Shown here: positions 642 through 63,545 of the stretch, one piece after another | Position numbering within the stretch: position 1 is the first letter of the stretch | Layout of the letters: every line of letters starts with the position of its first letter | Assembly (NCBI GenBank): GCA_964488535.1 | Contig: CAZAUT010000003.1 | Span: forward strand, 2,232 to 66,231 | DNA from: an uncultured Gammaproteobacteria bacterium | GTDB lineage: Bacteria > Patescibacteriota > Microgenomatia > UBA8517 | Length of the DNA stretch: 64,000 bases | Reading direction: 5' to 3' | Made by a program: the position numbers and the translations under genes | The notes under the pieces: generated by a model | What the model was told of the DNA's origin: nothing | What the model saw: only the letters and a program-made list of their open reading frames with translations | The model's database searches: none

Positions 642-1442
642 TTACTTCACAAATGGTACAAAATGAAATGTTCCAAATTCCTCCCTTGCCCTACGAAGCC
701 TTGGCGAAGTGGGGTTATTTATATCACTAACTGTTAAGCCACGTTTTTTCGTAATTCGAACCATCGTCTTATCCCTTCCTTTTCCCAACGGAGCCACAAG
801 TACTCCCCCGACTTTCAATTGTTTAAATAATTCCTCCGGTACATTTTCAACCCCGGCAGTTATAATTATCGCGTCGTACAGAGAGTGTTCTTTCCACCCC
901 CACTCCCCGCTTCCCGTTCTTACAAATACATTCCTATACCCCAACCTTGAAAGGTTGTTCCCTGCAAGGTGTGAGAGTTCGGAAATAATTTCCACCGTAT
1001 AGACCTTGTTAAAAAAGTACGACAGCACCGCTGCCTGATATCCGCTTCCCGTCCCAATCTCTAAAACACATGTATTACGTATAAAGTATTTTGTATTAAG
1101 TATTTCTTTATCTCTTTCATATATTTGAGTTATTCGTTTCAGTTTTGCGTTTGTAATTTGGAGATTCTTTCGGATTTCGGATTTCGAATTTCGAATTTCC
1201 GTTGCAAGTTGTGTCATCTTTGCAACGGTGTACGGTTGACTCATCGTCTGTCCGTATCCAATATCAACGGGGTAATCATCGTAGGCGATATTCCAGTACT
1301 TCTTCGGAACAAACTCGTGCCGGGGAACTTGAAGCATTACATCTAAGACGCGTTCATCTTTGAAGCCATATTTTTTCCGAATGGTTTTTACCATCTGACA
1401 ACGTCTATCCTTATAAGGATTGTGTCTGTTGTTTTCTGTCAT
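642..1442 (-). CDS. pcm: protein-L-isoaspartate O-methyltransferase, carrying in-frame repeat insertions
   Basis: Motifs GYGQTMSQP, VLEIGTGSGYQAAVL, YDAIIITAG and LKVGGVLVAP. It contains a tandem SKSEIRNSKSEIRK segment and a palindromic-element insertion near the C-terminus. Confidence 0.8.
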   Translation of the reverse strand: MTENNRHNPYKDRRCQMVKTIRKKYGFKDERVLDVMLQVPRHEFVPKKYWNIAYDDYPVDIGYGQTMSQPYTVAKMTQLATEIRNSKSEIRKNLQITNAKLKRITQIYERDKEILNTKYFIRNTCVLEIGTGSGYQAAVLSYFFNKVYTVEIISELSHLAGNNLSRLGYRNVFVRTGSGEWGWKEHSLYDAIIITAGVENVPEELFKQLKVGGVLVAPLGKGRDKTMVRITKKRGLTVSDINNPTSPRLRRAREEFGTFHFVPFVK

Positions 1443-1919: not shown

Positions 1920-2010
1920 ATCTAAGAGTAAAAGAGCAGGAGAGCGGGAGAGCAGGAGTTTTTTTAACTTTTTACTTCTACTCTTCTACTCTTCCACTCT
2001 TCTACTCTAA
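1920..2010. repeat. GA-rich / TC-rich inverted repeat (gagagcgggagagcagg ... ctcttctactcttccactc), long hairpin
   Basis: The sequence shows an arm of G/A heptamer repeats, a T-run, then the complementary C/T-rich arm. The same motif family recurs at 10595-10640, 12475-12530, 21540-21650, 55720-55775 and 63470-63540. Confidence 0.6.
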
Positions 2011-2972: not shown

Positions 2973-2989
2973 AACCTTATAAATTGCTA

Positions 2990-3262
2990 AATTGTTAAAT
3001 GGTTAAATTGTTATTTAGTCAATAAAATATTTTCTATTTTCTGATTTTCCATTTTCTATTACAAATCTCTATTTTTCCTCAACAAGTTTCCATTTCCTGT
3101 TTTTTCTCCTAATATCCTAGTATCGTAATATCCTAATATCTTTTTTATTTTCCTATTCTACTTATTCTACTTTATCTACTTATTCTACTTTTTCTCCTAA
3201 GCACTTGATCACTTCCTATTTTTTCTCCTAATATCCTAGTATCATAATATCTTAATATCATC
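2990..3262. repeat. intergenic period ~8 tandem-repeat array (cctaatat / ctattttc / tacttattc families)
   Basis: Direct reading shows degenerate tandem units such as tcctaatatcctagtatcgtaatatcc and ttctacttattctactttatctac. Confidence 0.6.
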
Positions 3263-3263
3263 C

Positions 3264-5741: not shown

Positions 5742-6037
5742 CCCTTTAATCCTAACACAAAACCTGTTTGTCTTTATGGCTATATTGTTACGTTGCTATA
5801 TGGCTATATTGCTAACACACATTTTCCATTTCATGATTTTCAATTTACTATTTTTTCCTAATATCTTTATATCCTAATATCGTAATATCTTTTTCTCTTT
5901 TCCCGATGATACTTAATACTTTATACATGATACGTTATACATTATACGTAATACATTTTCTCCCCATATACCATATACAACATACAATATACTCGTCATC
6001 TTATTATCTTTATATCTTTGTATCTTTATATCTTTTC
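5742..6037. repeat. intergenic tandem-repeat array (ggctatattg, cctaatatc, tatacgt/tatacat families)
   Basis: Sequence such as tggctatattgttacgttgctatatggctatattgctaac and tacgttatacattatacgtaatacat. Confidence 0.6.
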
Positions 6038-7870
6038 CTATCTCCCCTGAAGCCCGAAAAGCATCTTTATTTCCTGAAGCGTTGTCGCTTCCTTTACGCT
6101 TTTATCTTCTCTAAACTTAACAAGTCTCGGAAAGCGAAGGGCATATCCGCTTGTGTGAATCGGGCTTTTGGTCAAGTCATCTCCCGCAAGCTCAACCACA
6201 AACTTTGGCTCAACCCAAAAATCGGGAGTGTAGTTTTTGTGCGCCTCATACTCTTTCGGCTTTTCTCTTACTTCTAATCGCTTAAGCCTTATTGCTAACT
6301 CTCTAAATTCTTCATCCGTTAAGCCCGTTCCTATTTTGGTTAAAGTTAATATCCTCCCCTCGCCCACCGTAGCCTTGCGCGAAGGCGGGTCAACAACTCC
6401 CACCAAAAATTGTCCTAAACCGAACGACGCCCTTTTACCTTTGCCGACGGTATAGCCCATGACTACGCAGTCAACCGTATCCGAAAGTTTTCCCACCGCT
6501 TCCTCTCCCTGCTTCATTTTTACCCACCGCCAGCCGGTCCGTCCCGAAACATATTTGCTATCATACTTCTTGATAAATATTCCTTCCAAGCCATCTTTGA
6601 TTTTTTTTCTGTATTCGTTATTTATAACTTCAGGATCTTCAGTCACTACCATCGCGTCAACAACCAATAAATTATTTTCCTTGGAAATTATATTCTCTAA
6701 AAGTTTTCTTCTTTTATAATACGGCTCGTTCATCATATTTTTTCCGTCGCAATACAAAACATCAAATACCTGAAAGCTTAAAGGCACTGCTTCGCAGGTA
6801 ACAGAAATCTGATGCACCCTCCTTCTTTTCATCGTCGTCTGGAAATCGGCAAATTTTTTCATTTCGGGATCCATCCCAACGGCTTCGGAATCGAGAATTA
6901 CTTCGCTGCAATTTACATATTTCCCGATTTCCGAAAGTTCCGGAAACATCTCCGTCACATCATTTGAGTTTCTGGTAAATGCTTTTATAAATACATTAGT
7001 TTGTTCGTGATTCGCATGCTTCGTTTCTTCGTTGTTTTGAATTTTTAATTTTTGTTTTGAGTTTTGAGTTTTAAGTTTTGAGCTTTTATAGTGGATTAAA
7101 ACACGAAGTCCGTCAAACTTCGGCTCGATTGCCACTTTACCCATTTTTTCGATCATTTCGGCAGGTGACTTTATCCTTTGTCCGAGCATCGGAAGAACCG
7201 GAACTCCGACAACGGGGGTTACGTTTTTACACGTCTCGTCAATTCCCCTGAGCTTTACACTTTTAGCTAATAGCCCTACATCCGGTAAAATATTGTAGGC
7301 CTCTTCTATCTTCTTACTCTCACTCTTCCCCCCCGTTTCCATCCAGGAAAGCGCATCAATGATTGTCTTATCAGAAAAACCCAAACGCAATTTGCCAACA
7401 GGAATTCTTGCCAAATACCGGGCTGAAAGCGGATCAACACTTTTCAATAATTCCGCCAATTTATCAATTTTTCTTTCAACACTTCCCCCACCCTCGTCCA
7501 CCGCAATCTTATAAAGTACATCATATACTTCGTCAACTGAAGAATTTGTTTTCTGCTTTCTGTTTATTGTTTCTTGTGCAAGCAGCTCCGTCACTATTCC
7601 CAAATCTCCTTTTACTTTATATTCCCGTACCACATCCTCCACTTCACTTCCATACGCCTTCGCCACCGCCTGTATCACCAATTTGTCCGCCATATTAAAG
7701 ACAATTCCTTTGTAGTTTGGAGCAAGTCCGCCAAGGGCTAGATAGCAAATTTTGTCTATTTCATCAGGTGAAGATGTTTTAAAAAGTTCCGCCAGTATTC
7801 TCGTGATCTCAAGACGGGAGGGCGTACTTTCAAGTCGTTGAAGAAAAATCGAAAATTGCGAAAAAGTCAT
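6038..7870 (-). CDS. ATP-dependent DNA ligase, carrying in-frame repeat insertions
   Basis: KxDG adenylation motif (IEPKFDGLRV) plus downstream ligase motifs. A low-complexity insertion KLKTQNSKQKLKIQNNEETK is encoded by gttttgag repeats, and a palindromic-element insertion gives DPPSRKATVGEG. Confidence 0.8.
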   Translation of the reverse strand: MTFSQFSIFLQRLESTPSRLEITRILAELFKTSSPDEIDKICYLALGGLAPNYKGIVFNMADKLVIQAVAKAYGSEVEDVVREYKVKGDLGIVTELLAQETINRKQKTNSSVDEVYDVLYKIAVDEGGGSVERKIDKLAELLKSVDPLSARYLARIPVGKLRLGFSDKTIIDALSWMETGGKSESKKIEEAYNILPDVGLLAKSVKLRGIDETCKNVTPVVGVPVLPMLGQRIKSPAEMIEKMGKVAIEPKFDGLRVLIHYKSSKLKTQNSKQKLKIQNNEETKHANHEQTNVFIKAFTRNSNDVTEMFPELSEIGKYVNCSEVILDSEAVGMDPEMKKFADFQTTMKRRRVHQISVTCEAVPLSFQVFDVLYCDGKNMMNEPYYKRRKLLENIISKENNLLVVDAMVVTEDPEVINNEYRKKIKDGLEGIFIKKYDSKYVSGRTGWRWVKMKQGEEAVGKLSDTVDCVVMGYTVGKGKRASFGLGQFLVGVVDPPSRKATVGEGRILTLTKIGTGLTDEEFRELAIRLKRLEVREKPKEYEAHKNYTPDFWVEPKFVVELAGDDLTKSPIHTSGYALRFPRLVKFREDKSVKEATTLQEIKMLFGLQGR

Positions 7871-8057
7871 AAGCTATTATAAATCCTAAATCCTAATTTC
7901 CAAATCCTAAATAATTTTCAAATGTTCAATACAAAATTTTTTAGGATCCTTATATATTTGAATTTAAATATTAGAGTTTGTTTAGAATTTAGAGTTTAGT
8001 GCTTAGAATTTATCTTTGTAACCATCAGCTGAACTAATTCCGATCAGTTGATTTGTA
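7871..8057. repeat. inverted-repeat element of the aaatcctaaat ... tttagaatttag family
   Basis: aaatcctaaatcctaatttccaaatcctaaat and tttgtttagaatttagagtttagtgcttagaattt are reverse complements. The same family sits upstream of nrdR at 47165-47300. Confidence 0.5.
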
Positions 8058-8258
8058 TTATGTATTTATCAAATATGTGGAGAAAAATAGGTATCCGAAA
8101 AATACCATAAGAAAAAAGAGTATCCCGAATGTTAATGTTAAATACCCGTGTTCGTTTCGGTGAATTAGTTTGTTAAGACCGTCGCCAAACATCGTTATTC
8201 CAAATATCGCAGGTAATACCAAAACTATGTACAAAAATTGTGGGTCAGATGGACTCAT
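8058..8258 (-). CDS. small membrane protein, hypothetical
   Basis: 66 aa with two predicted TM helices. Confidence 0.3.
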   Translation of the reverse strand: MSPSDPQFLYIVLVLPAIFGITMFGDGLNKLIHRNEHGYLTLTFGILFFLMVFFGYLFFSTYLINT

Positions 8259-8334
8259 ACCTTAAAAAATAAATACAAATTTCAAATAAATACCAATAAA
8301 TACAAATTACCAATAAATAATTACCCCAAACACA

Positions 8335-9881: not shown

Positions 9882-10286
9882 TTGCAGATACAATCCGCGC
9901 TAATGGCACCACTACTTGAACATGGGGTTAACCTTGATCCGGGAATCCGATACCGTTTCGTAAGTAATGGAAAAACTATTGCTTGTGCACCTCACGACCT
10001 CTTTGGTTTCGACTCTTCCAGACCGGATAATAATTTGACGCACACTCAATTGGCAATAAAATATAAACTTTCCACAGAAATAGATGAACACGGGAGACCA
10101 TTTGTGGCTTCGGCGGGATGGCTTGAGCCGGTAATGTCTGATAAAGGATACAAATGGCGTCTTGACAATGAAGTGAACACTTGTGCCTTAAAAGGTAACT
10201 GGAAAGAACGAGAAACAGCCTTTGCAAATGTTCGGCAAAAGTTAATTGAAATCTTGGGTGAAGATAAAGTTGCTGTTGGTGAATAA
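9882..10286 (+). CDS. hypothetical protein, paralogue of 21..335
   Basis: 134 aa with the shared AGWLEP, TCALKGNWKE and EILGEDKVA motifs. It is divergent from the Fic gene. Confidence 0.4.
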   Translation: MQIQSALMAPLLEHGVNLDPGIRYRFVSNGKTIACAPHDLFGFDSSRPDNNLTHTQLAIKYKLSTEIDEHGRPFVASAGWLEPVMSDKGYKWRLDNEVNTCALKGNWKERETAFANVRQKLIEILGEDKVAVGE

Positions 10287-11168
10287 TCACTTCATTAAAT
10301 CAAAAAACGTCTCAGGTATTTTTTCAGCAAGGTCATCAGAATTGTAGTTTACCCCAACCTTTTTATACAACTCATCCGCCACAGCTTTCTCTATATAACT
10401 TGCCGCACAAGCTGCTAAAAACGGCTCGTTCTTGGCAAGTAACGCAACTGTCAACCCCGCCAACACATCCCCGCTTCCCCCTTTGGTAAGTCCAGGATTT
10501 CCACCTGTTACTTTTACACACTCATTTGGTGAACAAACCACTGACTTGGAACCTTTGGCAACAATAATACAGTTGTGTTTTTTTGCCATTTCCTGAACCA
10601 CTTCCACTCTTCTACTCTTCCACTCTTCTACTCTAAAGAGTATTTCCAACTCTTTAGCATTCGGAGTTAGTATAGCGTTGTTGGGAATCCATTTATTATC
10701 TATGGTTTGCAAACTCCCTGCATCAATCACCCACTTCTTATGAGGGAACTTCAACAGTAATCTTTTAGTAATTTCTCTCGTTTTATTTCCTTCCCTGTCA
10801 TATTTTTTCACCCCTAATTCATTGTTCATAATTCTTGATTCATGCGTAAAGCGCATCATCCCCGGCCCGATCAAAACCGCGTCCGACTTTTCAATATACG
10901 CATCAACTTCCTCCCATGGAACCAATATAAAAGAGGACAATTCTGCTTTTAGTCGCTCAGCAACCCCGCCTACGCTTGACTCCGGCGAAGCAAAGAAAAC
11001 CATATCCACAACTCTTGAAGCGGCTTTTAACGCCAGTATGGGTGCTCCATGGAAGAGTGATGATCCTCCGATTATTGTTACCTGCCCATTTTCCTCATTA
11101 GACGAACCCCATGCTGGACTATATAAACCTGTTAACAGTTTGGTATCAAATATTTTCATAATAAACAA
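10287..11168 (-). CDS. ADP-dependent NAD(P)H-hydrate dehydratase (YjeF C-terminal domain)
   Basis: Motifs GGSSLFHGAPILA, VLIGPGM and GGSGDVLAG. It contains an in-frame EEWKSRRVEVV insertion encoded by the tcttctactc repeat. Confidence 0.7.
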   Translation of the reverse strand: MFIMKIFDTKLLTGLYSPAWGSSNEENGQVTIIGGSSLFHGAPILALKAASRVVDMVFFASPESSVGGVAERLKAELSSFILVPWEEVDAYIEKSDAVLIGPGMMRFTHESRIMNNELGVKKYDREGNKTREITKRLLLKFPHKKWVIDAGSLQTIDNKWIPNNAILTPNAKELEILFRVEEWKSRRVEVVQEMAKKHNCIIVAKGSKSVVCSPNECVKVTGGNPGLTKGGSGDVLAGLTVALLAKNEPFLAACAASYIEKAVADELYKKVGVNYNSDDLAEKIPETFFDLMK

Positions 11169-12151: not shown

Positions 12152-13450
12152 TTATATCTTAATAATCTTCCCCTCCACTCCCTCTATGTAGTGTGGGTCT
12201 GCTGTAGTTATTAAAGTTTGCTGTTTATCTACAATTCCCATCACAACATCCCTATGTTCATGATCGAGTTCTGAAAAAATGTCATCAAGTAATAGAACCG
12301 GCTTATCACCCGTAATACTTTCAATATACGACAGTTCCGCAAGTTTCAGCCAAAGTATTCCCATTCGGGCTTCTCCTCGAGAACCGTATGTAGCAAGATT
12401 TCGAGTAGAATATTTTCCATTTTCCATTTTCTCCCGCAGGACGGGATCCTGCTCCGCAGGAAATTTTCCATTTATTCCCTTTTCTTTTACTCTTCTACTC
12501 TCCTGCTCTTCCACTCTAAAAACGAAATCATCCCTATGCGGTCCTACCAGCGTCGTCCCCGCCGCTACCTCCTCGTTTTCATATTGCTTCAGCCGTCCTT
12601 CACTTATAACACTACTATCATACTGTAAGCTGTAGACCGTCGACTGTAGACTTGTATCTATTTTCCCTTTCCCCCTTTCTTTATTTCTTAAGTTCTTTGT
12701 ATTATTTTTATATATTGGAAATTGGTGCTCATTGGTATTTATTGGATATTGGTATTTATTTATGTAATCGATTAGTTCCCCCCTCTTTTCGGTAATGTAA
12801 TTTCCATGTTTTATAAGGAGTTTATCCCAATACATCAACTGCCCACGGGACAAATTCTCATCCCTTATCCGAAGTAAGAGCCGATTTCTCTGCCGAAGCC
12901 CTTTTTCGTAGATCATCACCGATCTTCGGTATTCACGATCGGTCTGCGACAAAACCGAATCAAGAAATCTTCGCCGAAGCGATGGTGAAGCCGTCACCAA
13001 ATCCATGTCCCATGGACCAAAGAGAACTACCTTCAGATTCCCTGCAAAATCCAAAAGTCTCTTTGCAACTCCATTAACCATTAGTTTTTTTCTCTGCGCC
13101 CTCTGTACTCCTCCGCCATGCAATTCTATTTCACCGTTGGTTAAAACCACCTCTAGGTTTGTATTATGTATTATGTATTTTGTATTATGCGTATTTTCGC
13201 TTAATACATTATTCATGATACTTAATACTGCGGAGACACGAGCAATGCTCGTGTTGTAGCTTATCATCTCCCCCTCCACCCTTGCTTTAAAACTCTTTCC
13301 CGTTGCCAAAAGATAAATTGCTTCCAAAATATTGGTTTTTCCCACAGCATTATCTCCGACAACAATCGTCGTCTTATCCGAAAATTCAAATTTCTTTTTG
13401 CTAAAATTCCTGAAGTTGGTAAGCATCAAATGTTTAATAAACATAATCAA
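12152..13450 (-). CDS. recF: DNA replication and repair protein RecF, carrying in-frame repeat insertions
   Basis: N-terminus LTNFRNF ... VGDNAVGKTNILEAI (Walker A) and a C-terminal LLLDDIFSELD signature. Several in-frame segments are encoded by the ttggtatttattgg, gtattatgtat and tcttctactc repeat families. Confidence 0.8.
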   Translation of the reverse strand: MIMFIKHLMLTNFRNFSKKKFEFSDKTTIVVGDNAVGKTNILEAIYLLATGKSFKARVEGEMISYNTSIARVSAVLSIMNNVLSENTHNTKYIIHNTNLEVVLTNGEIELHGGGVQRAQRKKLMVNGVAKRLLDFAGNLKVVLFGPWDMDLVTASPSLRRRFLDSVLSQTDREYRRSVMIYEKGLRQRNRLLLRIRDENLSRGQLMYWDKLLIKHGNYITEKRGELIDYINKYQYPINTNEHQFPIYKNNTKNLRNKERGKGKIDTSLQSTVYSLQYDSSVISEGRLKQYENEEVAAGTTLVGPHRDDFVFRVEEQESRRVKEKGINGKFPAEQDPVLREKMENGKYSTRNLATYGSRGEARMGILWLKLAELSYIESITGDKPVLLLDDIFSELDHEHRDVVMGIVDKQQTLITTADPHYIEGVEGKIIKI

Positions 13451-17844: not shown

Positions 17845-18780
17845 CTATTTCTGACAATTAGGACACATGTATGTCCCCCTCCCTCCAAGTTTTATTTTTA
17901 CAATCGGTGTTTTACATCGATTGCAGGGTTCCCCCTCCCGCCCGTAAACAAGCGTAAAATCCTGATAGTGTCCTTCACTTCCGTCGGGGGTCACAAATGC
18001 CTGCTCACTGGCACCTCCTTTTTTTATCCCCTCTTTCAGAACTGTCTCTATCGCCTTAAATAACTTAATCACTCGATCACTTGATAACTCAATCGCTTTT
18101 TCCTTCGGATTTATTCCCGCAAGCCACAAAGCATCATTAGCATAAATATTCCCTACCCCCGCCATCTTCGTCTGGTCCATTAAAAGTATTTTTATCGGCT
18201 TTTTGCTCTTTGAGAGAATCTCCGAAAAATCTTTCTCCCTCAAATCCCTCAAAAACTCCTTCCCCAATTTTTTTATGAAGTTTTGAGTTTTGACTTTTGA
18301 ACTTTGAGTTAGTTCCATCCACCCAAACCTCCTGTAATCATTAAAATAAAGAACCGCCCCTTGCCCTTCCGTAGCCTTGTGCGAAGGAGGGTCGTCTAAA
18401 TGAAAAATTACATGTGTGTGTTTCCCCGCCTTCGCCACTCCTTCTTTTAAACGTTCGGGGTTCACATATGCTTCGGCGGGCAAGCCAGGAACTCCCCCAA
18501 CTACCTTGGGCGATAGTTTTTTGTTTTCTGTTTTCTGTTTATTCCTGTAAATAAACTGTCCCGTCATTTTGACGTGGGTCACAATGGAGTACCCGTTTGA
18601 CAAATCCATAACCAACACCTTTCCAAATCTTCTGACACTTGTAATCTTTGCTCCAATTAGTTTTGTCCTATCCCATACCCCGTACTTCGTAATTCTTAAT
18701 TCAAAATTGACTATCGTATGTCCGACAAGAAACCTCTCAAGCTGAACACGTATACTTTCCACCTCTGGCAATTCTGGCAT
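17845..18780 (-). CDS. mutM: formamidopyrimidine-DNA glycosylase (Fpg/MutM), carrying in-frame insertions
   Basis: N-terminus MPELPEVE and a C-terminal zinc finger CNRCKTPIVK...CPNCQ. It has a DPPSHKATEGQG palindromic-element insertion and a gttttgag-repeat insertion. Confidence 0.8.
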   Translation of the reverse strand: MPELPEVESIRVQLERFLVGHTIVNFELRITKYGVWDRTKLIGAKITSVRRFGKVLVMDLSNGYSIVTHVKMTGQFIYRNKQKTENKKLSPKVVGGVPGLPAEAYVNPERLKEGVAKAGKHTHVIFHLDDPPSHKATEGQGAVLYFNDYRRFGWMELTQSSKVKTQNFIKKLGKEFLRDLREKDFSEILSKSKKPIKILLMDQTKMAGVGNIYANDALWLAGINPKEKAIELSSDRVIKLFKAIETVLKEGIKKGGASEQAFVTPDGSEGHYQDFTLVYGREGEPCNRCKTPIVKIKLGGRGTYMCPNCQK

Positions 18781-19303: not shown

Positions 19304-20515
19304 TTAAATCACTTTTTTAATTTCCTTAACAAATTTCTCTTTTGAAAACCTTTTTGCATTGTTCATTATAACCTGCCTGTTCCACTTAATTTTTTCAAAT
19401 CTTTTTATCGCATTTAAAATACTTTTTGTATCATCGCTGTTAACAAATAATCCGGTTATTTCGTCAACTACACTTTCTTTGAATCCTCCGCCATTATATG
19501 CAATAACGGGACAACCTGCAGCCTGCGCTTCAACCGCTGTCATTCCAAAATCCTCATTCTTGGCAAGAGCAATAAAACCTTTTGCATTCGAATACAGTTC
19601 CCACAATTTTTCATCACTTACTCTCCCCATAAATTCAATGTTTCTGAATTTATGTTCCTTAATTCTTGATTCAACATCTGAATACCCCGCCGCCTCCCCT
19701 ACAATCTTCAGTTTGTATTTCCCATCCAATTTTGAAAATGCATCAACCGCATTTTCAATTCCTTTCGCTCCCACCAACCTCGAAACAATTAAGAAGTATT
19801 TCTTATCTTTTTTTCCCTTAATTCTTGCTTGCCCTTCGAAGCCTTGGCGAAGGAGGGATACACGATACTTGATACTTTCCGTATCCACCGGCGGATAAAT
19901 AACTACCGAATCTCTTTTATAAAATTTGTCTATTCTTCTTTTGACATTTGCTGAATTCGCAATAAACAAATCCACTCCAGCTGTTATTTTTTGTTTATTG
20001 CTTATTGCTTTTTGCTTACTGCCGTATGGCATTTGTGCTGTCTTAAAATCATACTGACGTAAAAAATGTCCGACAATAGAAGCATAAATTTTTACCGGCC
20101 AGTACTTTGTAAAGCCAACCGATGTTTCATATCCATAAAGCCATCGTGGCGGTGTATGACAATAAGCTATCACTTTGGTGTGCGGTCCAATTTTAAATCC
20201 CCGGGTTATATACCAGCTGCAAGAAGTAATAACCAAGTCATATTTTGATAAATCCAAACTACCCCAAATTAACGGAATTAAAAATCTTAAGGGGCTATAC
20301 AATTTCCAAATTTTTAAAATTGGTGCCAACCAACTTTCGTGTATTTCCGCATCCGGAAATTCTTTTTGAGCAGTACTACCTTTAACCGTAAATGCGGTAT
20401 AAATAGGCGCATTTGGGTACATTTCTATTAATACCTTCAATACGCGTTCAGCCCCTCCAAATTCTTTAATGTAGTCATGCACAAGCGCCACGCGCTTGTG
20501 TGTATTATGTATCAT
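19304..20515 (-). CDS. glycosyltransferase family 4 (group 1), carrying an in-frame palindromic-element insertion
   Basis: EDFGMTAVEAQAAGCPVIAYNGGG signature. The insertion LLRQGFEGQA is encoded by cccttcgaagccttggcgaaggaggg. Confidence 0.75.
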   Translation of the reverse strand: MIHNTHKRVALVHDYIKEFGGAERVLKVLIEMYPNAPIYTAFTVKGSTAQKEFPDAEIHESWLAPILKIWKLYSPLRFLIPLIWGSLDLSKYDLVITSCSWYITRGFKIGPHTKVIAYCHTPPRWLYGYETSVGFTKYWPVKIYASIVGHFLRQYDFKTAQMPYGSKQKAISNKQKITAGVDLFIANSANVKRRIDKFYKRDSVVIYPPVDTESIKYRVSLLRQGFEGQARIKGKKDKKYFLIVSRLVGAKGIENAVDAFSKLDGKYKLKIVGEAAGYSDVESRIKEHKFRNIEFMGRVSDEKLWELYSNAKGFIALAKNEDFGMTAVEAQAAGCPVIAYNGGGFKESVVDEITGLFVNSDDTKSILNAIKRFEKIKWNRQVIMNNAKRFSKEKFVKEIKKVI

Positions 20516-20979: not shown

Positions 20980-22002
20980 TCAAAACAACATACCTTGCTC
21001 ACTTACAGAGTTTATATCTTTCAACTTAACCTTCTCTTGACCAATCTCTGGTTTTGAGTTTGATAGTCTCCGCAGGAGACTTTTGAATCCATACTCCATA
21101 AAAAGCCCTACGGCTTTCTCGCTTCCCAAATCCCACTCCCCCATTTTTTTAATATCAATTTCTGTCGGAACGTTGGTGTCAATTGTCGCCAATTCGTACG
21201 ACAGGTCGGCTCCTTCCCTGTCTTTCTCTAATTTATTTCTTACATTTGGATTTATTTCCGACAGGTGTTTATAAACATTCTCCTTCGTTTTATATTTTGT
21301 CAATAAGTCCCTCGCCGTTTTCGGACCAATCCCTGCCACTCCGGGGTAATTGTCCGACGAATCTCCAACCAACGCTTTATAATCAACCATTTGTTTGGGC
21401 TCAAAATCAAATTCTTGCTTTACCTCTTCAACTCCGTATAATTTCCCTTCTTTTAATCCTTTTACCGGAACATAGACCTTCACTTTGTCATTTATGAGCT
21501 GAAAAATATCCCGATCGCCGGTGACGATGATAACTTTGTCGATCAGAGTAGAAGAGCGGGAGAGCGGGAGAGTAGAAGTTCTTATTGATTTCTGATTTTT
21601 CTCATGTTTCTTACTTACACTCTTCCACTCTTTTACTCTTATACTCTGCTTGGCAAGCGTCCCAAGCACATCATCCGCCTCAAACCCCGCTTTCTCATAA
21701 ACCGGAATTCCAAATGCTTCCAAAACATCGTGCATTTTGGTAATTTGTTGGGAAAGAAAGTCATCCATTTCAGGACGCTGTGATTGATAGTGAATATACT
21801 TTTCTTTTCTGAAAGTCTTTTCCGGGCGGTCAAAACAAACCGCAATATGGGTGGGTTTAATGTCGTTTATAAGTCCCAGAAGCATTGAAACAAATCCATA
21901 AACAGCATTTATAGGTTCTCCTTTTTTAGTCGTTAAGGGAGGCAAAGCATGATACGCCCGATGCATGATCGCATTTCCGTCAATAAGAATCAGTTTTGAC
22001 AT
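20980..22002 (-). CDS. stand-alone 5'-3' exonuclease (PolI N-terminal / FEN-like), carrying an in-frame repeat insertion
   Basis: N-terminus LILIDGNAIMHRAYHALPPL and an H3TH region. A 40-aa low-complexity insertion is encoded by a gagtagaag / ctcttccactc inverted repeat. Confidence 0.8.
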   Translation of the reverse strand: MSKLILIDGNAIMHRAYHALPPLTTKKGEPINAVYGFVSMLLGLINDIKPTHIAVCFDRPEKTFRKEKYIHYQSQRPEMDDFLSQQITKMHDVLEAFGIPVYEKAGFEADDVLGTLAKQSIRVKEWKSVSKKHEKNQKSIRTSTLPLSRSSTLIDKVIIVTGDRDIFQLINDKVKVYVPVKGLKEGKLYGVEEVKQEFDFEPKQMVDYKALVGDSSDNYPGVAGIGPKTARDLLTKYKTKENVYKHLSEINPNVRNKLEKDREGADLSYELATIDTNVPTEIDIKKMGEWDLGSEKAVGLFMEYGFKSLLRRLSNSKPEIGQEKVKLKDINSVSEQGMLF

Positions 22003-29700: not shown

Positions 29701-29906
29701 TTACTAAAGCGTTGTATTAACTTCAATCTTGAAGTATAATTTACCCTGTTCTTTACCATAATTCCTAATTCATAATTCGTAATTCAGGAAAAATGTGCGG
29801 GGTAGTGTCCCGAAAAAATTTCGCTTTGCTCAATTCAACGGGACGAGCAGATGAAACTTCGCATACATTGGTAATTTTAATCGTATTTTAACAACTTAAT
29901 CATATG

Positions 29907-30227
29907 TGCGGGGTAGTGTACGGCTGCACGGAAGGCTCAAAATGGGCTTCCCGCTTAGCGGGATAAATTTGGCTATATCGGTGAAACCTAAGCTTTATAG
30001 AGTATGGCAACGCCGAGGAAAGACTACGTTCAAATTTTATGAAAGTAGAATCCGTAGAGACTATACGCCAAAGCACGTTCATATAAACTGAATGTACAAG
30101 ACATAGTCCGACACTCCCAAATACCTTTTGGTATTTGACAGTAAACTGTATAGTTCATTGCAAGAAATTGGAGATTACAGAATAAGCATAATCTTCCAGA
30201 TCAGGTTCAACTCCTGACCCCGCAACA
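29907..30227 (+). ncRNA. ssrA: tmRNA (SsrA)
   Basis: The 5' acceptor strand TGCGGGG pairs with the 3' CCCCGCA. The 3' T-arm CAGGTTCAACTCCTG is near-identical to the E. coli tmRNA T-arm GGGTTCAACTCCCGC. A candidate tag ORF at 30007-30042 (GCA ACG CCG AGG AAA GAC TAC GTT CAA ATT TTA TGA, giving ATPRKDYVQIL) aligns in position and codons with E. coli ANDENYALAA. Confidence 0.6.
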
Positions 30228-32462: not shown

Positions 32463-32534
32463 GTGGGCTGAGATGGGTTCGAACCATCGACATCTACTTT
32501 ATAAGAGTAGCGCTCTACCACTGAGCTATCAGCC
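32463..32534 (-). tRNA. tRNA-Ile (TAT anticodon)
   Basis: The minus strand reads GGGCTGATAGCTCAGTGGTAGAGCGCTACTCTTATAAAGTAGATGTCGATGGTTCGAACCCATCTCAGCCCA. The cloverleaf is complete, with anticodon loop CTTATAA. Confidence 0.7.
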
Positions 32535-32568
32535 CTTAAATTTATTGACATGTCAAACTCCGTTTGCC

Positions 32569-39236: not shown

Positions 39237-39281
39237 AAATATAAAGATATCAAGATATTAAGATATTAGAATACTACGATA

Positions 39282-39653
39282 TTACGAGTGGGAAAGCTTC
39301 TCGGTTGAACGAATAAGTCCGCCAAGTATAACCCCCGATTTTTCGGATTGTTTCATTATCTCTTCAAACCCTTCATTGGATAAGTATCCTAAATCCTTGG
39401 CAATTAACGACTGTGTTTGAACCTCTGAAAGTGAACCTCTGGCATCGAAATAGAAATTCAACCTGTCTTTGTAGTGGTATCTGGAGAATCCTTCTGCTAT
39501 ACAAGATTCATTGGAAACAACGGCACGTCTGATTTGTGAAGTCAATCCAAAAGTTTCCGACTTTGGAAAACTCCCGGAATACTTGTAAATCATAAGTGTT
39601 AACTTATGCGCCTCTTTCCAAGCATCCAAATCCTGAAATGTTTTTATTTTCAT
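39282..39653 (-). CDS. four-helix-bundle protein (Avd / 23S rRNA IVS family)
   Basis: LDAWKEAHKLTLMIYK..FPKSE..CIAEGFSRYHYKDR. Confidence 0.75.
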   Translation of the reverse strand: MKIKTFQDLDAWKEAHKLTLMIYKYSGSFPKSETFGLTSQIRRAVVSNESCIAEGFSRYHYKDRLNFYFDARGSLSEVQTQSLIAKDLGYLSNEGFEEIMKQSEKSGVILGGLIRSTEKLSHS

Positions 39654-39767
39654 TCTCCTAATATCTCAATATCCTAATATCGTAATATCCTAGTATCCCA
39701 GTATCTTTCTTTCTATCCTGTGCCCTCTCCTAATATCGTAATATCGTAGTATCCTAATACCGTTTCT
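39654..39767. repeat. tandem-repeat array, cctaatatc / gtaatatc family
   Basis: tcctaatatctcaatatcctaatatcgtaatatcctagtatcccagtatc ... ctcctaatatcgtaatatcgtagtatcctaataccg. Confidence 0.6.
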
Positions 39768-49642: not shown

Positions 49643-52099
49643 GTGTCACAATGTAATATAATATGCAACATGAAGAAGAAAGAAAGACATAAACAAAAAA
49701 CAGGGATCGAAAAGCGAAAAGTAGAAAGCAATAAGAAATTAAAAAGTATATTGAATGTTGTATATCGTATGTTGGGGAAAGCAGTAAACAGAAAGCAGAA
49801 AGCAAAAAACAAGAAAACAGTAAACAAAAAGCAGAAAGCTCTCCTTCGTATGAAGCTACGGACAAGCGAAGTAATTAACAAAAAGCTAAAGACAAGAATC
49901 CCGCGGAAATCTTTTTTGCATAATAAAAAATTCCGCATCATTATCGCCTGTGGTCTATTGACTGCAGTCGTTGCCTTCACAACGTGGCTTTTTTGGGGAC
50001 TTCCCCTTCCTACAAAACTACTGAAATCACAGGTTCCGGTTTCCACAAAATTATATGATCGTAACGGAGAACTAATATACGAGATATATGCCGATAAAAG
50101 AAGCTCACCCGTTAATATTGACGAACTGCCGTCCTACGTCATTGACGCCACAATCTCAATTGAAGACAAGGATTTTTACAGACACCACGGCTTCTCAATT
50201 TCCGGTATTACGCGTGCTGCCTATAACACGCTTTTCAAGCAAAAGCTGCAGGGCGGTTCAACTTTAACGCAACAACTGGTGAAGAATGTACTCCTGACGC
50301 CCGAACGTACCGTCAAAAGAAAGATGCGGGAATTGGTAATTACGGTTATCGTCGAAATACTGTATTCCAAAGAGCAAATCCTTGATCTTTATTTTAATCA
50401 GATTCCTTATGGTTCCACCGCTTACGGAATAGGATCCGCAAGTGAATTGTATTTTGATAAAGATGCCAAGGATCTTACTCTTGCAGAAGCTGCACTTTTG
50501 GCAGGAATTACCGCAGCACCGACAAAATACTCTCCCTTTGGGGCTCATCCGGAGATCGCTAAATCAAGACAGGAAATTGTTCTTGCCCGTATGGTCGAGG
50601 ACGGGAAGATAACGCAGGAGGATGCAGATGAGGCCAAATCACAAGAACTGAAATTCGCCGAACCGCAAAAGTTTAACGCTCCTCATTTTTCTCTCTGGGT
50701 AAAAGAACTTCTGGCTGATAAATACGGGGACACACTGGTTGAACAAGGAGGTCTTCGTGTTACAACTACCCTTGATATGGATCTTCAAGAATACGCGGAA
50801 GGCACGGTCTCGGGTGAGTTGGCGAAATTGAAAAAACAAAATGTCGGAAACGGTGCAGTACTTGTCACCCGCCCCGGGTCAGGGGAAATTCTTGCAATGG
50901 TTGGATCAAAAGATTATTTCGCCAAAGACGAAGATGGAAAAGTAAATGTCATTTTTGCCAACCGCCAACCGGGATCATCCATAAAACCCATAAACTATGC
51001 TCTGGCTCTGAAAGACAGAAAGATCACTCTTTCCACTCCCCTGGCTGATGTGCCGACTTGTTTCTCGGTCTACGGACAAAAGGCGTACTGTCCGGTGAAT
51101 TACGACGGATCGTTCCATGGAGCAGTCCAGCCGAGATTTGCATTGGGAAATTCCTACAACAGTCCCGCGGTAAGAGTCTTGGCTCTTAATGGTTTGGAAC
51201 ACTTTATAGATTTTGCCAATCAGATGGGATTAACGACGTTTATTGATCCAAAAAATTACGGATTGTCGCTAACTCTTGGCGGGGGCGAAGTAAAACCGTA
51301 TGACATGGCAACCGCCTTTGGTGTTTTTGCAAACGAGGGAGTAAAAATACCTCTCAATCCGATACTTAAAATTACAGACTGGAAAGGAGAAGTGTACGAA
51401 GAAGTTGATCCCAACAAGATTGACGGAACAAGAGTACTTGATCCTGAAGTGACATTTTTAATCTCTCACACCCTTCACGACAATAATGCAAGATCGGCTG
51501 CTTTCGGCAGCAACTCATACTTGGTAGTCAAAAACCATTCCGAGGTGTCTGTAAAAACCGGAACAACCAACGATAGAAAGGATAACTGGACGATCGGTTA
51601 TACTTCTCAAATTCTTACTCTCGTCTGGGTCGGGAACAATGATAATTCGGAAATGAGCGGAGCCGTTTCCGGTGTCTCAGGAGCATCGCCAATCTGGAAC
51701 TCTGTAATTAAATATGCACTTGATAAGGCCGAAAAAAGCTATTACAACCAAGAAGATGATGGGCACGCCTGGCCGAGACAGCCTGAAGGAATCGTCGGGA
51801 AAAATGTCTGTGCAACAACTGGAAACATACCAACCAATCCTGATTCTCCAGAGTGTGGAACTAGGTTTGAATATTTCATCAAAGACGCAATTGGTGCGAA
51901 TATCCAGGCGGGACAAAAGGATGTACTTGTATTCAAAGATACAAGACAGCTTGCCAATGAAGATGCCCTTCCCGAACAGGTAGAAGTACAAAACCACCCC
52001 TTCCTTCTCGACCCTTTGGGGACTCTTGTCTGTCTCGATTGTCCCCTGGCAAGTTCATCTGCTAAAATCAGCTACCCTTTGATTGCTGCGCCCAACTAA
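49643..52099 (+). CDS. class A penicillin-binding protein (transglycosylase + transpeptidase)
   Basis: GT51 motifs EDKDFYRHHGFS and GGSTLTQQLVKN. Transpeptidase motifs RQPGSSIKP, SYN and KTGTT. Confidence 0.85.
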   Translation: MSQCNIICNMKKKERHKQKTGIEKRKVESNKKLKSILNVVYRMLGKAVNRKQKAKNKKTVNKKQKALLRMKLRTSEVINKKLKTRIPRKSFLHNKKFRIIIACGLLTAVVAFTTWLFWGLPLPTKLLKSQVPVSTKLYDRNGELIYEIYADKRSSPVNIDELPSYVIDATISIEDKDFYRHHGFSISGITRAAYNTLFKQKLQGGSTLTQQLVKNVLLTPERTVKRKMRELVITVIVEILYSKEQILDLYFNQIPYGSTAYGIGSASELYFDKDAKDLTLAEAALLAGITAAPTKYSPFGAHPEIAKSRQEIVLARMVEDGKITQEDADEAKSQELKFAEPQKFNAPHFSLWVKELLADKYGDTLVEQGGLRVTTTLDMDLQEYAEGTVSGELAKLKKQNVGNGAVLVTRPGSGEILAMVGSKDYFAKDEDGKVNVIFANRQPGSSIKPINYALALKDRKITLSTPLADVPTCFSVYGQKAYCPVNYDGSFHGAVQPRFALGNSYNSPAVRVLALNGLEHFIDFANQMGLTTFIDPKNYGLSLTLGGGEVKPYDMATAFGVFANEGVKIPLNPILKITDWKGEVYEEVDPNKIDGTRVLDPEVTFLISHTLHDNNARSAAFGSNSYLVVKNHSEVSVKTGTTNDRKDNWTIGYTSQILTLVWVGNNDNSEMSGAVSGVSGASPIWNSVIKYALDKAEKSYYNQEDDGHAWPRQPEGIVGKNVCATTGNIPTNPDSPECGTRFEYFIKDAIGANIQAGQKDVLVFKDTRQLANEDALPEQVEVQNHPFLLDPLGTLVCLDCPLASSSAKISYPLIAAPN

Positions 52100-63469: not shown

Positions 63470-63545
63470 CAGAGTATAAGAGTATAAGTAAAGCATAACT
63501 TTTGTTAAAATACTTCTACTCTCCCGCTCTTATACTCTATTCAAT
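63470..63545. repeat. inverted repeat, gagtataagag ... ctcttatactc
   Basis: agagtataagagtataagtaaagc ... ctactctcccgctcttatactc. Confidence 0.55.

What the first reader, a model, noticed from the sequence alone, without database searches (positions are those of the whole stretch)
12475..13210. Period 7-9 tandem-repeat families fill intergenic DNA and are also translated in-frame inside essential genes
A handful of short-unit repeat families account for much of the intergenic sequence, often as inverted-repeat hairpins. The families are tcttctactc/gagtagaag, gttttgag/ctcaaaac, ttggtatttattgg, tatacgt/tatacat, cctaatatc and aattataat. The same families occur inside open reading frames without breaking them. 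In recF they are at 12475-12530, 12640-12760 and 13140-13210. In the ligase they are at 7020-7090, in fpg at 18270-18320, in yjeF-C at 10595-10640, in the 5'-3' exonuclease at 21540-21650, in the second PBP at 55670-55775 and in pcm at 1160-1200. This gives RecF about 70 extra residues over typical length, for example. A lineage in which simple-sequence elements spread into core genes while remaining coding is unusual.
Basis: seen in the sequence. Interest (0 to 1): 0.65.

Follow-up and report, generated by a model that had tools for sequence, protein, structure and literature searches.

The report
Short tandem arrays invading CPR genes
A Woesebacteria-like (candidate phyla radiation) genome is peppered with about 30-45-base arrays made of 4-5 copies of a 7-10-base unit, filling spacers and sitting in frame inside housekeeping genes as floppy extra loops, and a few of them are conserved far more than neutral DNA, so they are not all junk.

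Summary
The repeats are real and sit at every coordinate given. TRF finds 50 arrays of period 7-10 with at least 3.5 copies, against 0-1 in shuffles. The genes are correctly named and stay intact.

Three details are overstated. There are 42 distinct units, not a handful. Arrays cover 17% of non-coding DNA, reaching about 60% in some spacers. Only about one array in five has an inverted partner.

The organism is a Woesebacteria-like CPR bacterium. Independent assemblies of four syntenic relatives carry arrays at the same protein loops, so mis-assembly is excluded. Array density among Microgenomates runs from 0 to 0.9 per kb.

In RecF the three array-bearing segments are exactly the AlphaFold low-confidence loops. 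Array-coded peptide is rich in K, N, Q and S. Units inside genes are enriched for stop-free sequences.

Most arrays look made and homogenised in place. Units at one orthologous site differ between species, and two strains differ by a unit-register indel.

A subset is constrained at nucleotide level. Spacer arrays are 95% identical where synonymous sites are saturated, and a recF hairpin is the most conserved stretch of that gene.

Closest analogues are cyanobacterial STRR, Rickettsia RPEs and Borg repeats. I rate it a new variant of a known kind.

The parts
12152..13444 (-). recF, 430 aa, with Walker A, signature and Walker B motifs intact. It carries three array-bearing inserts.
   Evidence: PDB RecF hits at E = 1e-36 in three separated blocks. 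7796 homologues, the best being Woesebacteria/Patescibacteria. Alignment A1. AlphaFold pLDDT is below 50 only at residues 55-62, 79-91, 236-267, 316-327 and 329-333.
13135..13222 (-). recF insert 1. A hairpin whose arms are period-7 arrays: (GTATTAA-like)x4, then a loop, then (CATAATA)x4.3. It includes the TRF array 13160-13189 and encodes ...NNVLSENTHNTKYIIHNT...
   Evidence: TRF. RNA fold -17.2 kcal/mol, z = -4.0. It is 83% identical in nucleotides to L081 (third codon positions 68%), against 62% and 40% for the rest of the gene. It is the most conserved 25-codon window of recF.
12622..12760 (-). recF insert 2. Three adjacent arrays: (CTACAGT)x4.4, (TAAAGAAA)x2.9 and (AAATACCAAT)x3.3.
   Evidence: TRF. 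It sits at an indel hotspot in A1. pLDDT is below 50 at residues 236-267. L083 carries (TACCAAT)x4.9 at the same site.
12400..12520 (-). recF insert 3. (AGAGTRGA)x4.4 at 12483-12517, a GC-rich palindrome, (GGAAAAT)x2.9 at 12412-12431, and a remnant of a 3' arm.
   Evidence: TRF, pattern search, fold. The segment is absent from P0084 and P0107.
21545..21647 (-). In-frame hairpin inside the 5'-3' exonuclease gene. The 5' arm is (AGAGTNNA)x4.25 and the 3' arm is (CTNNNNCT)x4.25. Both arms are 34 nt.
   Evidence: RNA fold -37.8 kcal/mol, z = -6.2. The same insert with 34-nt arms is at the same loop in L081, and is absent from L083.
10601..10634 (-). (AGAGTAGA AGAGTGGA)x2 + AG, 34 nt, in frame in the NAD(P)H-hydrate dehydratase gene (yjeF-C).
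   Evidence: TRF gives period 16 x2.1 at 100% match, against period 8 at 88%..
7032..7086 (-). (TCAAAAC)x7.7 in frame in the ATP-dependent DNA ligase gene. It splits the adenylation domain.
18279..18310 (-). (CAAAACT)x4.6 in frame in fpg. A second array, (AGAAAAC)x3.6, lies at 18516-18540.
19991..20022 (-). (AAGCAAT)x4.6 in frame in a GT4 glycosyltransferase gene. The orthologous loop carries (AAATCCG)x4.7, perfect, in L083 and (AAATACG)x5.1 in L086.
1168..1199 (-). (TTCGAAA)x4.6 in frame in pcm.
49746..49839 (+). Arrays in the N-terminal region of the first class A PBP, including (GAAAGCA)x8.9.
55627..55760 (+). Arrays in the second class A PBP, between the membrane helix and the transglycosylase domain: (TATAATAAT)x4.9 and a perfect (CTCTTCTA)x4.6.
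1925..2008 (-). Intergenic AGAG-family hairpin. It overlaps the stop codon of the Na/Ca exchanger gene.
   Evidence: RNA fold -38.2 kcal/mol, z = -7.1.
2973..3263 (-). Spacer built from five arrays. Two of them are (GATAYTAN)x4+GGAG modules 119 nt apart. The stretches 3102-3140 and 2977-3000 are 95-96% identical to the orthologous spacer of L083.
5742..6037 (-). Spacer built from five arrays, about 60% of its length.
39239..39763 (.). GATATTAG-family arrays flanking a small gene (39282..39653) in inverted orientation, at 39239-39284 and 39656-39705, plus a further copy at 39731-39763.
7875..8015 (-). Intergenic hairpin made of (TTCTAAA)-type and (GGATTTA)-type period-7 arrays.
   Evidence: RNA fold -29.8 kcal/mol, z = -4.8.
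63471..63543 (.). Shorter AGAG-family hairpin in a spacer.
   Evidence: RNA fold -23.3 kcal/mol, z = -4.5.

Best explanation
The window comes from a Woesebacteria-like CPR bacterium whose genome carries a dense population of STRR-like short tandem arrays. Units are 7-10 nt (mode 7-8) and usually occur in 4-5 copies, giving arrays of about 30-45 nt. Sometimes two inverted arrays form a long hairpin.

Most arrays are generated and kept homogeneous in place, by short tandem duplication, replication slippage and unit-register recombination. This step is inferred from patterns, not observed. They accumulate where they do no harm, which means spacers right up to the stop codons and insertion-tolerant surface loops of proteins.

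Inside genes only frame-preserving, stop-free versions survive. These are translated into K/N/Q/S-rich disordered loops that leave the fold and the catalytic motifs intact. The sequence, the AlphaFold model and the orthologue comparison show this. Translation itself is inferred.

A minority of arrays has been captured, or exists, for a nucleic-acid-level role. Examples are the (GATAYTAN)x4+GGAG module that tends to lie 2-7 nt after stop codons, the array just upstream of the Na/Ca exchanger gene, and the tandem-armed hairpin in recF. They are conserved where neutral sites are saturated. The constraint is shown. The role is not known, and I guess RNA processing, termination or translational coupling at cistron boundaries.
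For: The arrays are real and non-random.

They occur in independent assemblies of relatives.
- L081 and L082 are identical over 13.6 kb although they come from two samples.
- L083 and L084 are two strains at about 99.4% identity.

The distribution is lineage-patchy: 0 to 0.9 arrays per kb across 80 recF loci, and none in the 21 kb fetched around recF from the complete genome CP011214.

Evidence for origin and turnover in place:
- There are 42 distinct units.
- The same loop carries different, internally homogeneous units in different species. The GT4 loop has AAGCAAT, AAATCCG and AAATACG. The ligase, fpg and yjeF loops behave the same way.
- Some arrays show ABAB dimer duplication at 100% match, at 10601-10634 and 6005-6035.
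- A 47-nt indel in unit register separates two 99.4%-identical strains.
- A 119-nt module is duplicated in the window spacer relative to L083.

Evidence for tolerance and translation:
- pLDDT is below 50 at the three recF inserts.
- Inserts fall at indel hotspots of the family.
- Genic units are enriched for stop-free sequences.
- K+N+Q+S+R makes up 54% of array-coded residues, against 27.5% elsewhere.

Evidence for constraint on a subset:
- Synonymous-type third positions between the window and L083 are 37-41% identical. Even so, spacer arrays 3102-3140 and 2977-3000 are 95-96% identical, and the spacer is 76% identical over 159 nt.
- recF insert 1 is the most conserved nucleotide window of the gene against L081.
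- The seven GATAYTAN copies all end in four units followed by GGAG, or GGAA in one copy; one copy has two extra units upstream.
Against: Simple slippage does not predict the sharp lower bound of 7 nt on unit length.

Nor does it predict the peaked copy number. The mode is 4.2-4.7 copies, and eight period-8 arrays are exactly 34 nt.

Both arms of the exonuclease hairpin are 34 nt in two genomes at 58% protein identity, which argues for a fixed architecture rather than free copy-number drift.

The excess of lag-2 identity over lag-1 identity (65 arrays against 27) may partly be a TRF edge effect.

Nucleotide-level conservation of some arrays shows that the 'harmless filler' part cannot be the whole story.

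No mechanism or enzyme was identified. Only 64 kb of the genome could be examined.
Confidence: 0.55

Rival explanations
1. The arrays, at least the hairpin and multi-copy families, are small non-autonomous mobile elements of the MITE, REP or RPE kind. On this view they transpose into spacers and, in frame, into genes.
For: - The AGAG family has at least 6 loci in the window with the same 34-nt arm architecture and the same ends, AGAGT...ACTCT.
- The GATAYTAN family has 7 copies with a fixed 4-unit+GGAG design.
- recF insert 3 looks nested.
- The exonuclease hairpin is present in the window and in L081 but absent from the closer relative L083.
- In-frame palindromic inserts are known for Rickettsia RPEs (PMC10969869).
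Against: - No target-site duplications or conserved loops were seen.
- Most arrays have unique units (42 of 56) and no inverted partner.
- Orthologous sites show concerted evolution rather than identical inserts.
- No transposase was linked to them.
- (AGAGTRGA)n occurs in very diverse metagenomic contigs, with GC from 0.34 to 0.69, so the unit alone does not mark a family.
Confidence: 0.15
2. The arrays exist because they are functional cis-elements, not because of a mutational habit. They would be tandem binding sites for a protein or an RNA-level signal for termination, processing, stability or translational coupling. Their presence in ORFs would be secondary.
For: - Nucleotide-level conservation persists where synonymous sites are saturated.
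- The architecture is fixed at four units.
- 12 of 34 intergenic arrays lie within -20 to +9 nt of a stop codon.
- By my reading of the sequences, five of nine GATAYTAN copies in two genomes start 2-7 nt after a stop.
- There is no excess of canonical terminators or sigma-70 promoters in 20 kb.
- STRR in cyanobacteria have been proposed to stabilise transcripts or couple translation (PMC2670836).
Against: - 42 different units cannot be sites for one factor.
- Many arrays at orthologous sites change their unit between species, or are absent from close relatives.
- Related genomes have none, so the cell does not need them.
- Closeness to ORF ends is partly explained by stop-rich arrays ending ORFs, and by the longest-ORF rule for start codons.
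Confidence: 0.2
3. The arrays are selected at protein level to create new disordered regions, as proposed for tandem repeats in Borg elements.
For: Array-coded segments are predicted disordered and rich in polar residues. Borg tandem repeats do this (PMC9879509).
Against: - Units are 7, 8 or 10 nt and not multiples of three, so no amino-acid repeat is formed.
- The same kinds of array fill non-coding DNA at eight times the density.
- The AGAG positions are conserved in all three reading frames, which protein selection cannot explain.
Confidence: 0.05
4. The arrays are an assembly artefact, or the contig is chimeric.
For: Repeats are a known source of assembly errors (PMC9879509, introduction).
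Against: - The arrays are shorter than a sequencing read.
- The same phenomenon, often the same arrays at the same sites, appears in contigs from ENA, JGI, Logan and NCBI built by different pipelines.
- All ORFs are intact.
Confidence: 0.01

Closest known systems
Cyanobacterial STRR (short tandemly repeated repetitive sequences)
   Same: - Both are tandem arrays of about 7-bp units, dispersed at many loci and mostly between genes.
- Some can form hairpins.
- The function is unknown, with proposals of transcript stability or translational coupling (PMC2670836).
- STRR also occur inside a functional gene, the RNase P RNA gene (Vioque 1997, title cited in PMC2858038).
   Different: - The phylum is different (CPR/Microgenomates).
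- Units run from 7 to 10 nt, with dozens of different sequences. From my own knowledge STRR have a few defined heptamers; this was not checked here.
- Copy number peaks at about 4.3-4.7.
- They occur in frame inside many protein-coding housekeeping genes.
Rickettsia palindromic elements (RPE) and other intragenic MITEs
   Same: Both are small, hairpin-capable repeats found in spacers and inserted in frame into unrelated housekeeping genes, in a way compatible with the protein fold (PMC10969869).
   Different: - RPEs are about 150-bp elements in ten families, each coding a conserved peptide.
- Here most inserts are 30-45-nt arrays with unique units.
- Only a minority are palindromic.
- There is evidence of turnover in place, and none of transposition.
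Tandem repeats of Borg extrachromosomal elements
   Same: Both are pervasive tandem repeats between and within genes. The ORFs are never broken, the new protein segments are disordered, the repeats evolve fast, and closely related genomes lack them (PMC9879509).
   Different: - Borg genic units are always divisible by three and give perfect amino-acid repeats.
- Borg units are nearly all unique and perfect.
- Here units are 7, 8 or 10 nt and the arrays are short and often imperfect.
- Some arrays here are old and conserved.
- The host is a bacterial chromosome.
Contingency loci (phase-variable simple sequence repeats)
   Same: Both are short-unit tandem repeats inside coding regions, where a change of one unit would shift the reading frame.
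   Different: - Here they lie in housekeeping genes rather than surface or restriction genes.
- The arrays are mostly imperfect.
- No copy-number difference was seen within genes between the two strains compared.

Membership tests
Cyanobacterial STRR | Tandem arrays of heptanucleotide units | tested here: met
   Periods are 7 (30 rows), 8 (28), 9 (16) and 10 (11), with almost none below 7. This is broader than strict heptamers.
Cyanobacterial STRR | Many dispersed copies, mainly intergenic | tested here: met
   46 intergenic arrays cover 17% of non-coding DNA, against 2.2% of coding DNA.
Cyanobacterial STRR | A few defined unit sequences shared by the copies. This feature is taken from my own knowledge of STRR1-3. 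| tested here: not met
   42 distinct canonical units among 56 arrays.
Cyanobacterial STRR | Host is a heterocyst-forming cyanobacterium | tested here: not met
   The best RecF homologues are Woesebacteria/Patescibacteria.
RPE / MITE | Copies share a conserved full-length sequence of defined size | tested here: not met
   This holds only for sub-families: the AGAG hairpins and (GATAYTAN)x4+GGAG. Loops and flanks differ, and most arrays are unique.
RPE / MITE | Terminal inverted repeats and target-site duplications | tested here: inconclusive
   Inverted arms are present in about 10 of 49 arrays. No duplications were seen at the copies inspected. No clean empty site was available for comparison.
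RPE / MITE | In-frame insertion into unrelated genes without loss of fold | tested here: met
Borg-type tandem repeats (aaTR) | Genic unit length divisible by three, giving amino-acid tandem repeats | tested here: not met
   Genic units are 7, 8, 9 or 10 nt. Only 55668-55711 has period 9.
Borg-type tandem repeats (aaTR) | Create intrinsically disordered regions | tested here: met
   pLDDT is below 50 at the recF inserts. The composition is polar.
Phase-variable contingency loci | Copy number varies between close strains and switches the gene on and off | tested here: not met
   The alignment of L083 and L084 (about 99.4% identity) shows no unit-register length difference inside any gene. The only array difference is intergenic. 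Only one strain pair was compared.
Self-splicing intron or intein, as an alternative to translation | A recognisable intron RNA or intein domain at the insert | tested here: not met
   Rfam finds nothing at any array. The inserts are 10-45 residues of low-complexity sequence.

The most novel reading that the evidence does not exclude
The constrained subset is a new class of cis-acting nucleic-acid signal in Microgenomates. It comprises four-unit arrays such as (GATAYTAN)x4+GGAG placed a few bases after stop codons, and tandem-armed hairpins conserved inside recF and the exonuclease gene. These would be read by an unknown factor at RNA or DNA level, for example for termination, processing or ribosome hand-over between cistrons. 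They could reside inside coding sequence, which would force proteins to carry the encoded loop.
Probability: 0.2. Interest if true: 0.75.

Novelty: new variant of a known kind. Interest (0 to 1): 0.55.

Why it matters
CPR bacteria have tiny genomes, yet this lineage spends about a sixth of its non-coding DNA, and up to about 90 residues of a single repair protein, on short arrays.

If the arrays are mutational by-products, they point to a lineage-specific replication or repair peculiarity. They also give a natural experiment on which protein loops tolerate insertions.

If the conserved subset is functional, it would be an unrecognised signal at gene boundaries in a group for which the scan of 20 kb here found no excess of canonical terminators or sigma-70 promoters.

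There is also a practical side. Such inserts inflate protein lengths and can mislead annotation, orthology calls and structure prediction for CPR genomes.

Tried and rejected
- **Hairpins as the general rule.** Rejected. Reverse-complement partner scores exceed controls for only about 10 of 49 arrays. The generic inverted-repeat finder misses the AGAG hairpins because their arms lack 8-nt exact seeds.
- **A shared pool of units across genomes.** The support is weak. Six units are shared with four relatives, against 2.4 expected (p about 0.02). With one mismatch allowed, 25 are shared against 19, which is not significant.
- **Successive doubling (1 to 2 to 4 to 8 copies) as the origin of the 4.x-copy mode.** This is suggestive. 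Some arrays are ABAB at 100% match, and lag-2 identity exceeds lag-1 in 65 arrays against 27. However, TRF edge bias can produce part of this signal, so I do not rely on it.
- **Finding the same species in metagenomes to look for copy-number alleles.** A 24-mer from recF found nothing, and the window's RecF is not in the gene index.
- **Scanning metagenomes for (AGAGTRGA)x3.** It gave at least 120 hits in unrelated contigs of all GC contents, so the scan was uninformative.
- **The difference between L083 and L084 near position 17100.** It is a scaffold gap of Ns, not a repeat change.
- **Differences in gene calls between L081 and L082.** The DNA is identical.
- **Promoter and terminator consensus scans.** No excess over shuffles.
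- **Rfam.** No family matches at any array.
- **Literature.** Searches for CPR, Microgenomates or Patescibacteria together with tandem repeats found no description.
Full report
**What is there**

TRF on the 64-kb window gives 126 rows, dominated by periods 7 (30 rows), 8 (28), 9 (16) and 10 (11). Fifty rows have period 7-10 and at least 3.5 copies. Twenty Markov-1 and Markov-3 shuffles give 0 or 1 each.

I merged the rows into 95 arrays and set them against a map of 56 ORFs of at least 100 aa.
- 46 arrays are intergenic. They cover 1646 of 9762 non-coding bases, or 17%.
- 44 are genic. They cover 1198 of 54238 coding bases, or 2.2%.
- 5 straddle a gene end.

Many of the genic rows are 2-copy matches that may be chance. 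About 14 are strong arrays, and these lie in nine genes. By my sum of the TRF rows, spacers 2973-3263 and 5742-6037 are about 60% array.

Every coordinate in the finding holds an array. Pfam confirms the gene names:
- PCMT
- ATP-dependent ligase (N, M and C domains)
- Fpg
- NAD(P)H-hydrate dehydratase
- 5'-3' exonuclease
- two class A PBPs
- RecF/SMC_N

In several of these genes the domain is split or stretched at the array.

- The units are not a handful of families. The 56 arrays have 42 distinct canonical units.
- Inverted partners are a minority. The reverse complement of an array finds a partner within 150 nt above control scores for roughly 10 of 49 arrays.
- Those that do pair are striking. 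The AGAG-family hairpins at 1925-2008 and inside the exonuclease gene (21545-21647) fold at -38 kcal/mol with z of -6 to -7.

**Organism, and is it real**

RecF (12152-13444, minus strand, 430 aa) has thousands of homologues. The best are at 56-64% identity and carry the labels Woesebacteria or Patescibacteria. Loci fetched through RecF include Woese-, Gottesman-, Ames-, Levy- and Collierbacteria.

Four syntenic relatives were fetched:
- L081/L082 (Logan and JGI)
- L083/L084 (two ENA assemblies of Rifle groundwater, labelled Woesebacteria GW2011)
- L085
- L086

They share the gene order exonuclease, GT4, fpg, recF, DUF5654, yjeF-C, Fic, ligase, ATPase, Na/Ca exchanger. All carry the same kind of array.

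L081 and L082 are 100% identical over 13.6 kb although they come from different samples and pipelines. The arrays are also shorter than a sequencing read, so mis-assembly is excluded.

Across 80 recF loci the density of period 7-10 arrays runs from 0 to 0.9 per kb.
- There are none in the 21 kb fetched around recF from the complete Woesebacteria genome CP011214, and almost none in the Chloroflexota loci.
- Density is highest in some Levy-, Gottesman- and Amesbacteria and in this window, which has about 0.75 per kb.

The trait is therefore lineage-patchy within Microgenomates.

**Inside genes**

In an alignment of RecF with 23 homologues, the three array-bearing segments fall at three indel hotspots. 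At these positions relatives have inserts of other lengths or none, and relatives range from 349 to 421 aa.

An AlphaFold model built on that alignment has mean pLDDT 77.6. Confidence drops below 50 at residues 79-91, 236-267 and 316-333, which are the three inserts, and at one short loop (55-62). Walker A, the signature motif and Walker B are invariant.

The same picture holds for the other genes when aligned with the syntenic relatives:
- exonuclease, between GTLAK and VIIVTGDRD
- ligase, after IHYK
- fpg
- yjeF-C
- GT4

Array-coded residues are 54% K+N+Q+S+R, against 27.5% in the rest of the same proteins. They contain almost no G, A, P, D or C.

A period of 7 or 8 cycles through all three reading frames, so a unit must be stop-free in every frame to survive in an ORF.
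- This holds for 8 of 13 genic units, against 5 of 30 intergenic units read on the sense strand (Fisher p = 0.009).
- Where the consensus has a stop, the in-frame copy is changed. An example is AGAGTAGA alternating with AGAGTGGA in yjeF-C.
- In PBP2 the arrays lie between the membrane helix and the transglycosylase domain, so they must be read through.
- Rfam finds no intron at any array.

I conclude that the segments are translated. This is an inference and was not observed.

**Evidence for origin and turnover in place**

- At the same loop of the GT4 enzyme the window has (AAGCAAT)n, L083 has a perfect (AAATCCG)x4.7 and L086 has (AAATACG)x5.1. Each array is homogeneous for its own variant, which is the signature of concerted evolution.
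- The ligase, fpg and yjeF-C loops likewise carry different units in different species.
- Several arrays are exact duplications of a two-unit block. 10601-10634 and 6005-6035 have period 16 at 100% match, against period 8 at 88-91%.
- L083 and L084 differ by about 0.6%. Their one array difference is a 47-nt indel in unit register in a (GATATTRG)n region after a tRNA synthetase gene.
- Relative to L083, the window spacer 2973-3263 has duplicated a 119-nt module that includes an array.

**Features that simple slippage does not explain**

- Units shorter than 7 nt are nearly absent.
- Copy number is peaked rather than geometric. For period 7, nineteen arrays lie between 3.6 and 4.9 copies. For period 8, eight arrays are exactly 34 nt (4.25 units). 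A few arrays have 7-10 copies.
- Both arms of the exonuclease hairpin are 34 nt in the window and in L081, at 58% protein identity. The AGAG positions are unchanged in all three reading frames, while the other four positions of each unit vary.
- Identity at lag 2 exceeds identity at lag 1 in 65 arrays against 27. TRF's way of setting array ends can create part of this, so I treat it as suggestive only.

**Evidence that some arrays are constrained**

Between the window and L083, third positions of identical four-fold-type codons are 37-41% identical in four genes. Neutral sites are therefore near saturation.

The orthologous spacer between the ATPase and Na/Ca exchanger genes behaves very differently.
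- It is 76% identical over 159 aligned bases.
- The array at 3102-3140, (GATAYTAN)x4+GGAG, is 95% identical to L083 19306-19344, down to its internal variants.
- The (ACAATTTA)n array that abuts the exchanger start codon (2977-3000) is 96% identical to L083 19445-19468.

The GATAYTAN family has seven copies in the window.
- All end in four units followed by GGAG (GGAA in one copy), usually with an A-run after it; one copy has two extra units upstream.
- By my reading of the sequences, five of nine copies in the two genomes start 2-7 nt after a stop codon.

Inside recF, insert 1 is a hairpin whose two arms are period-7 arrays. Its nucleotide identity to L081 is 83% (third positions 68%), against 62% (40%) for the rest of the gene. 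It is the most conserved 25-codon window of the whole gene, even though it encodes a loop predicted to be disordered.

Overall, 12 of 34 intergenic arrays lie within -20 to +9 nt of a stop codon. Part of this is because stop-rich arrays end ORFs. The similar closeness to start codons is partly an artefact of the longest-ORF rule.

**Interpretation**

The class is heterogeneous. The best single account has three parts:
1. A lineage-specific tendency to create and homogenise short tandem arrays in place.
2. Selection that filters which arrays persist, and where.
3. A subset that has a nucleic-acid-level role at cistron boundaries, or has acquired one.

I could not identify the generating mechanism. 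The options below are untested ideas from general knowledge:
- flap-ligation duplications during Okazaki fragment maturation
- templated insertions during end joining, which could also give inverted copies
- slippage that escapes mismatch repair for loops longer than a few bases

Transposition (MITE- or RPE-like) remains possible for the hairpin and multi-copy families. I found no target-site duplications and no conserved loops. The (AGAGTRGA)n unit itself occurs in very diverse metagenomic contigs.

**Comparison with what is known**

- **Cyanobacterial STRR** is the closest analogue. These are tandem repeats of about 7 bp between genes, able to form hairpins, with unknown function (PMC2670836). 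They have also been reported inside the RNase P RNA gene (title cited in PMC2858038).
- **Rickettsia palindromic elements** are the precedent for in-frame inserts in housekeeping genes (PMC10969869).
- **Borg tandem repeats** are the precedent for pervasive repeats that create disordered protein regions, but there the genic units are always divisible by three (PMC9879509).

None of the three fits on its defining features, as set out in the membership table. Full-text searches found no description of this phenomenon in CPR bacteria.

**Verdict**

This is a new variant of a known kind of genomic repeat, and its unexpected, testable twist is nucleotide-level constraint on some arrays, including one inside recF.

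Noticed in passing
window 6356-6391 (-) and 18358-18393 (-): A different, GC-rich 36-nt element, GACCCKCCTTCGCRCAAGGCTACGGWRGGSSARGGG, sits in frame in both the ligase gene (coding DPPSRKATVGEG) and fpg (coding DPPSHKATEGQG). The three syntenic relatives lack it at these sites. An exact search with its core found no copy in the 82 loci held at that point.
   Followed up: partly
window 29891-30132 (+), flanks 29795-29831 and 30180-30227: Rfam finds a complete group I intron (51.9 bits, gathering score 50). Downstream lies a tRNA-like 3' half, ...GCATAATCTTCCAGATCAGGTTCAACTCCTGACCCCGCA. GCGGGGTAG motifs occur twice upstream. This may be an intron-split tRNA-Met that ARAGORN did not call.
   Followed up: no
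window 32463-32535 (-): A tRNA-Ile with anticodon TAT, which is uncommon in bacteria. It scores 75.6 bits in Rfam.
   Followed up: no
L083 7863-7915: A perfect 27-nt x2 in-frame tandem duplication (GSPRGGALR twice) in the fpg gene of the relative. This is a Borg-like repeat with a unit divisible by three, in the same lineage.
   Followed up: no
window 8068-8260: A 193-nt stretch upstream of the ligase gene is 82% identical to L083 14172-14364, although neutral sites are saturated. It overlaps a 66-aa ORF (8058..8258). It is either a conserved small gene or a non-coding RNA.
   Followed up: no
L081 3447-4985 and L086 4057-5508, compared with window 20980-22002: The 5'-3' exonuclease of two relatives has a conserved C-terminal domain of about 170 aa. 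The window and L083 lack it.
   Followed up: no
window 18400-18470 (-), fpg residues about 103-126: A window-specific insert of 20 aa (LPAEAYVNPERLKEGVAKAG) in fpg. It is not a tandem array, and the three relatives lack it.
   Followed up: no
window 39239-39705: A 123-aa gene (39282..39653) is bracketed by GATATTAG-family arrays in inverted orientation, like a small cassette.
   Followed up: no
window 55724-55760: A perfect (CTCTTCTA)x4.6 array lies inside a class A PBP gene. Gain or loss of one 8-nt unit would shift the frame, so this site could in principle switch the gene off.
   Followed up: no
L081 35-412 and 11789-12133: Stand-alone genes for 23S rRNA intervening-sequence (bAvd-like) four-helix-bundle proteins recur in the syntenic relative L081. 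I did not confirm the window counterpart, which is possibly the 104-aa ORF at 9976-10290 (-).
   Followed up: no
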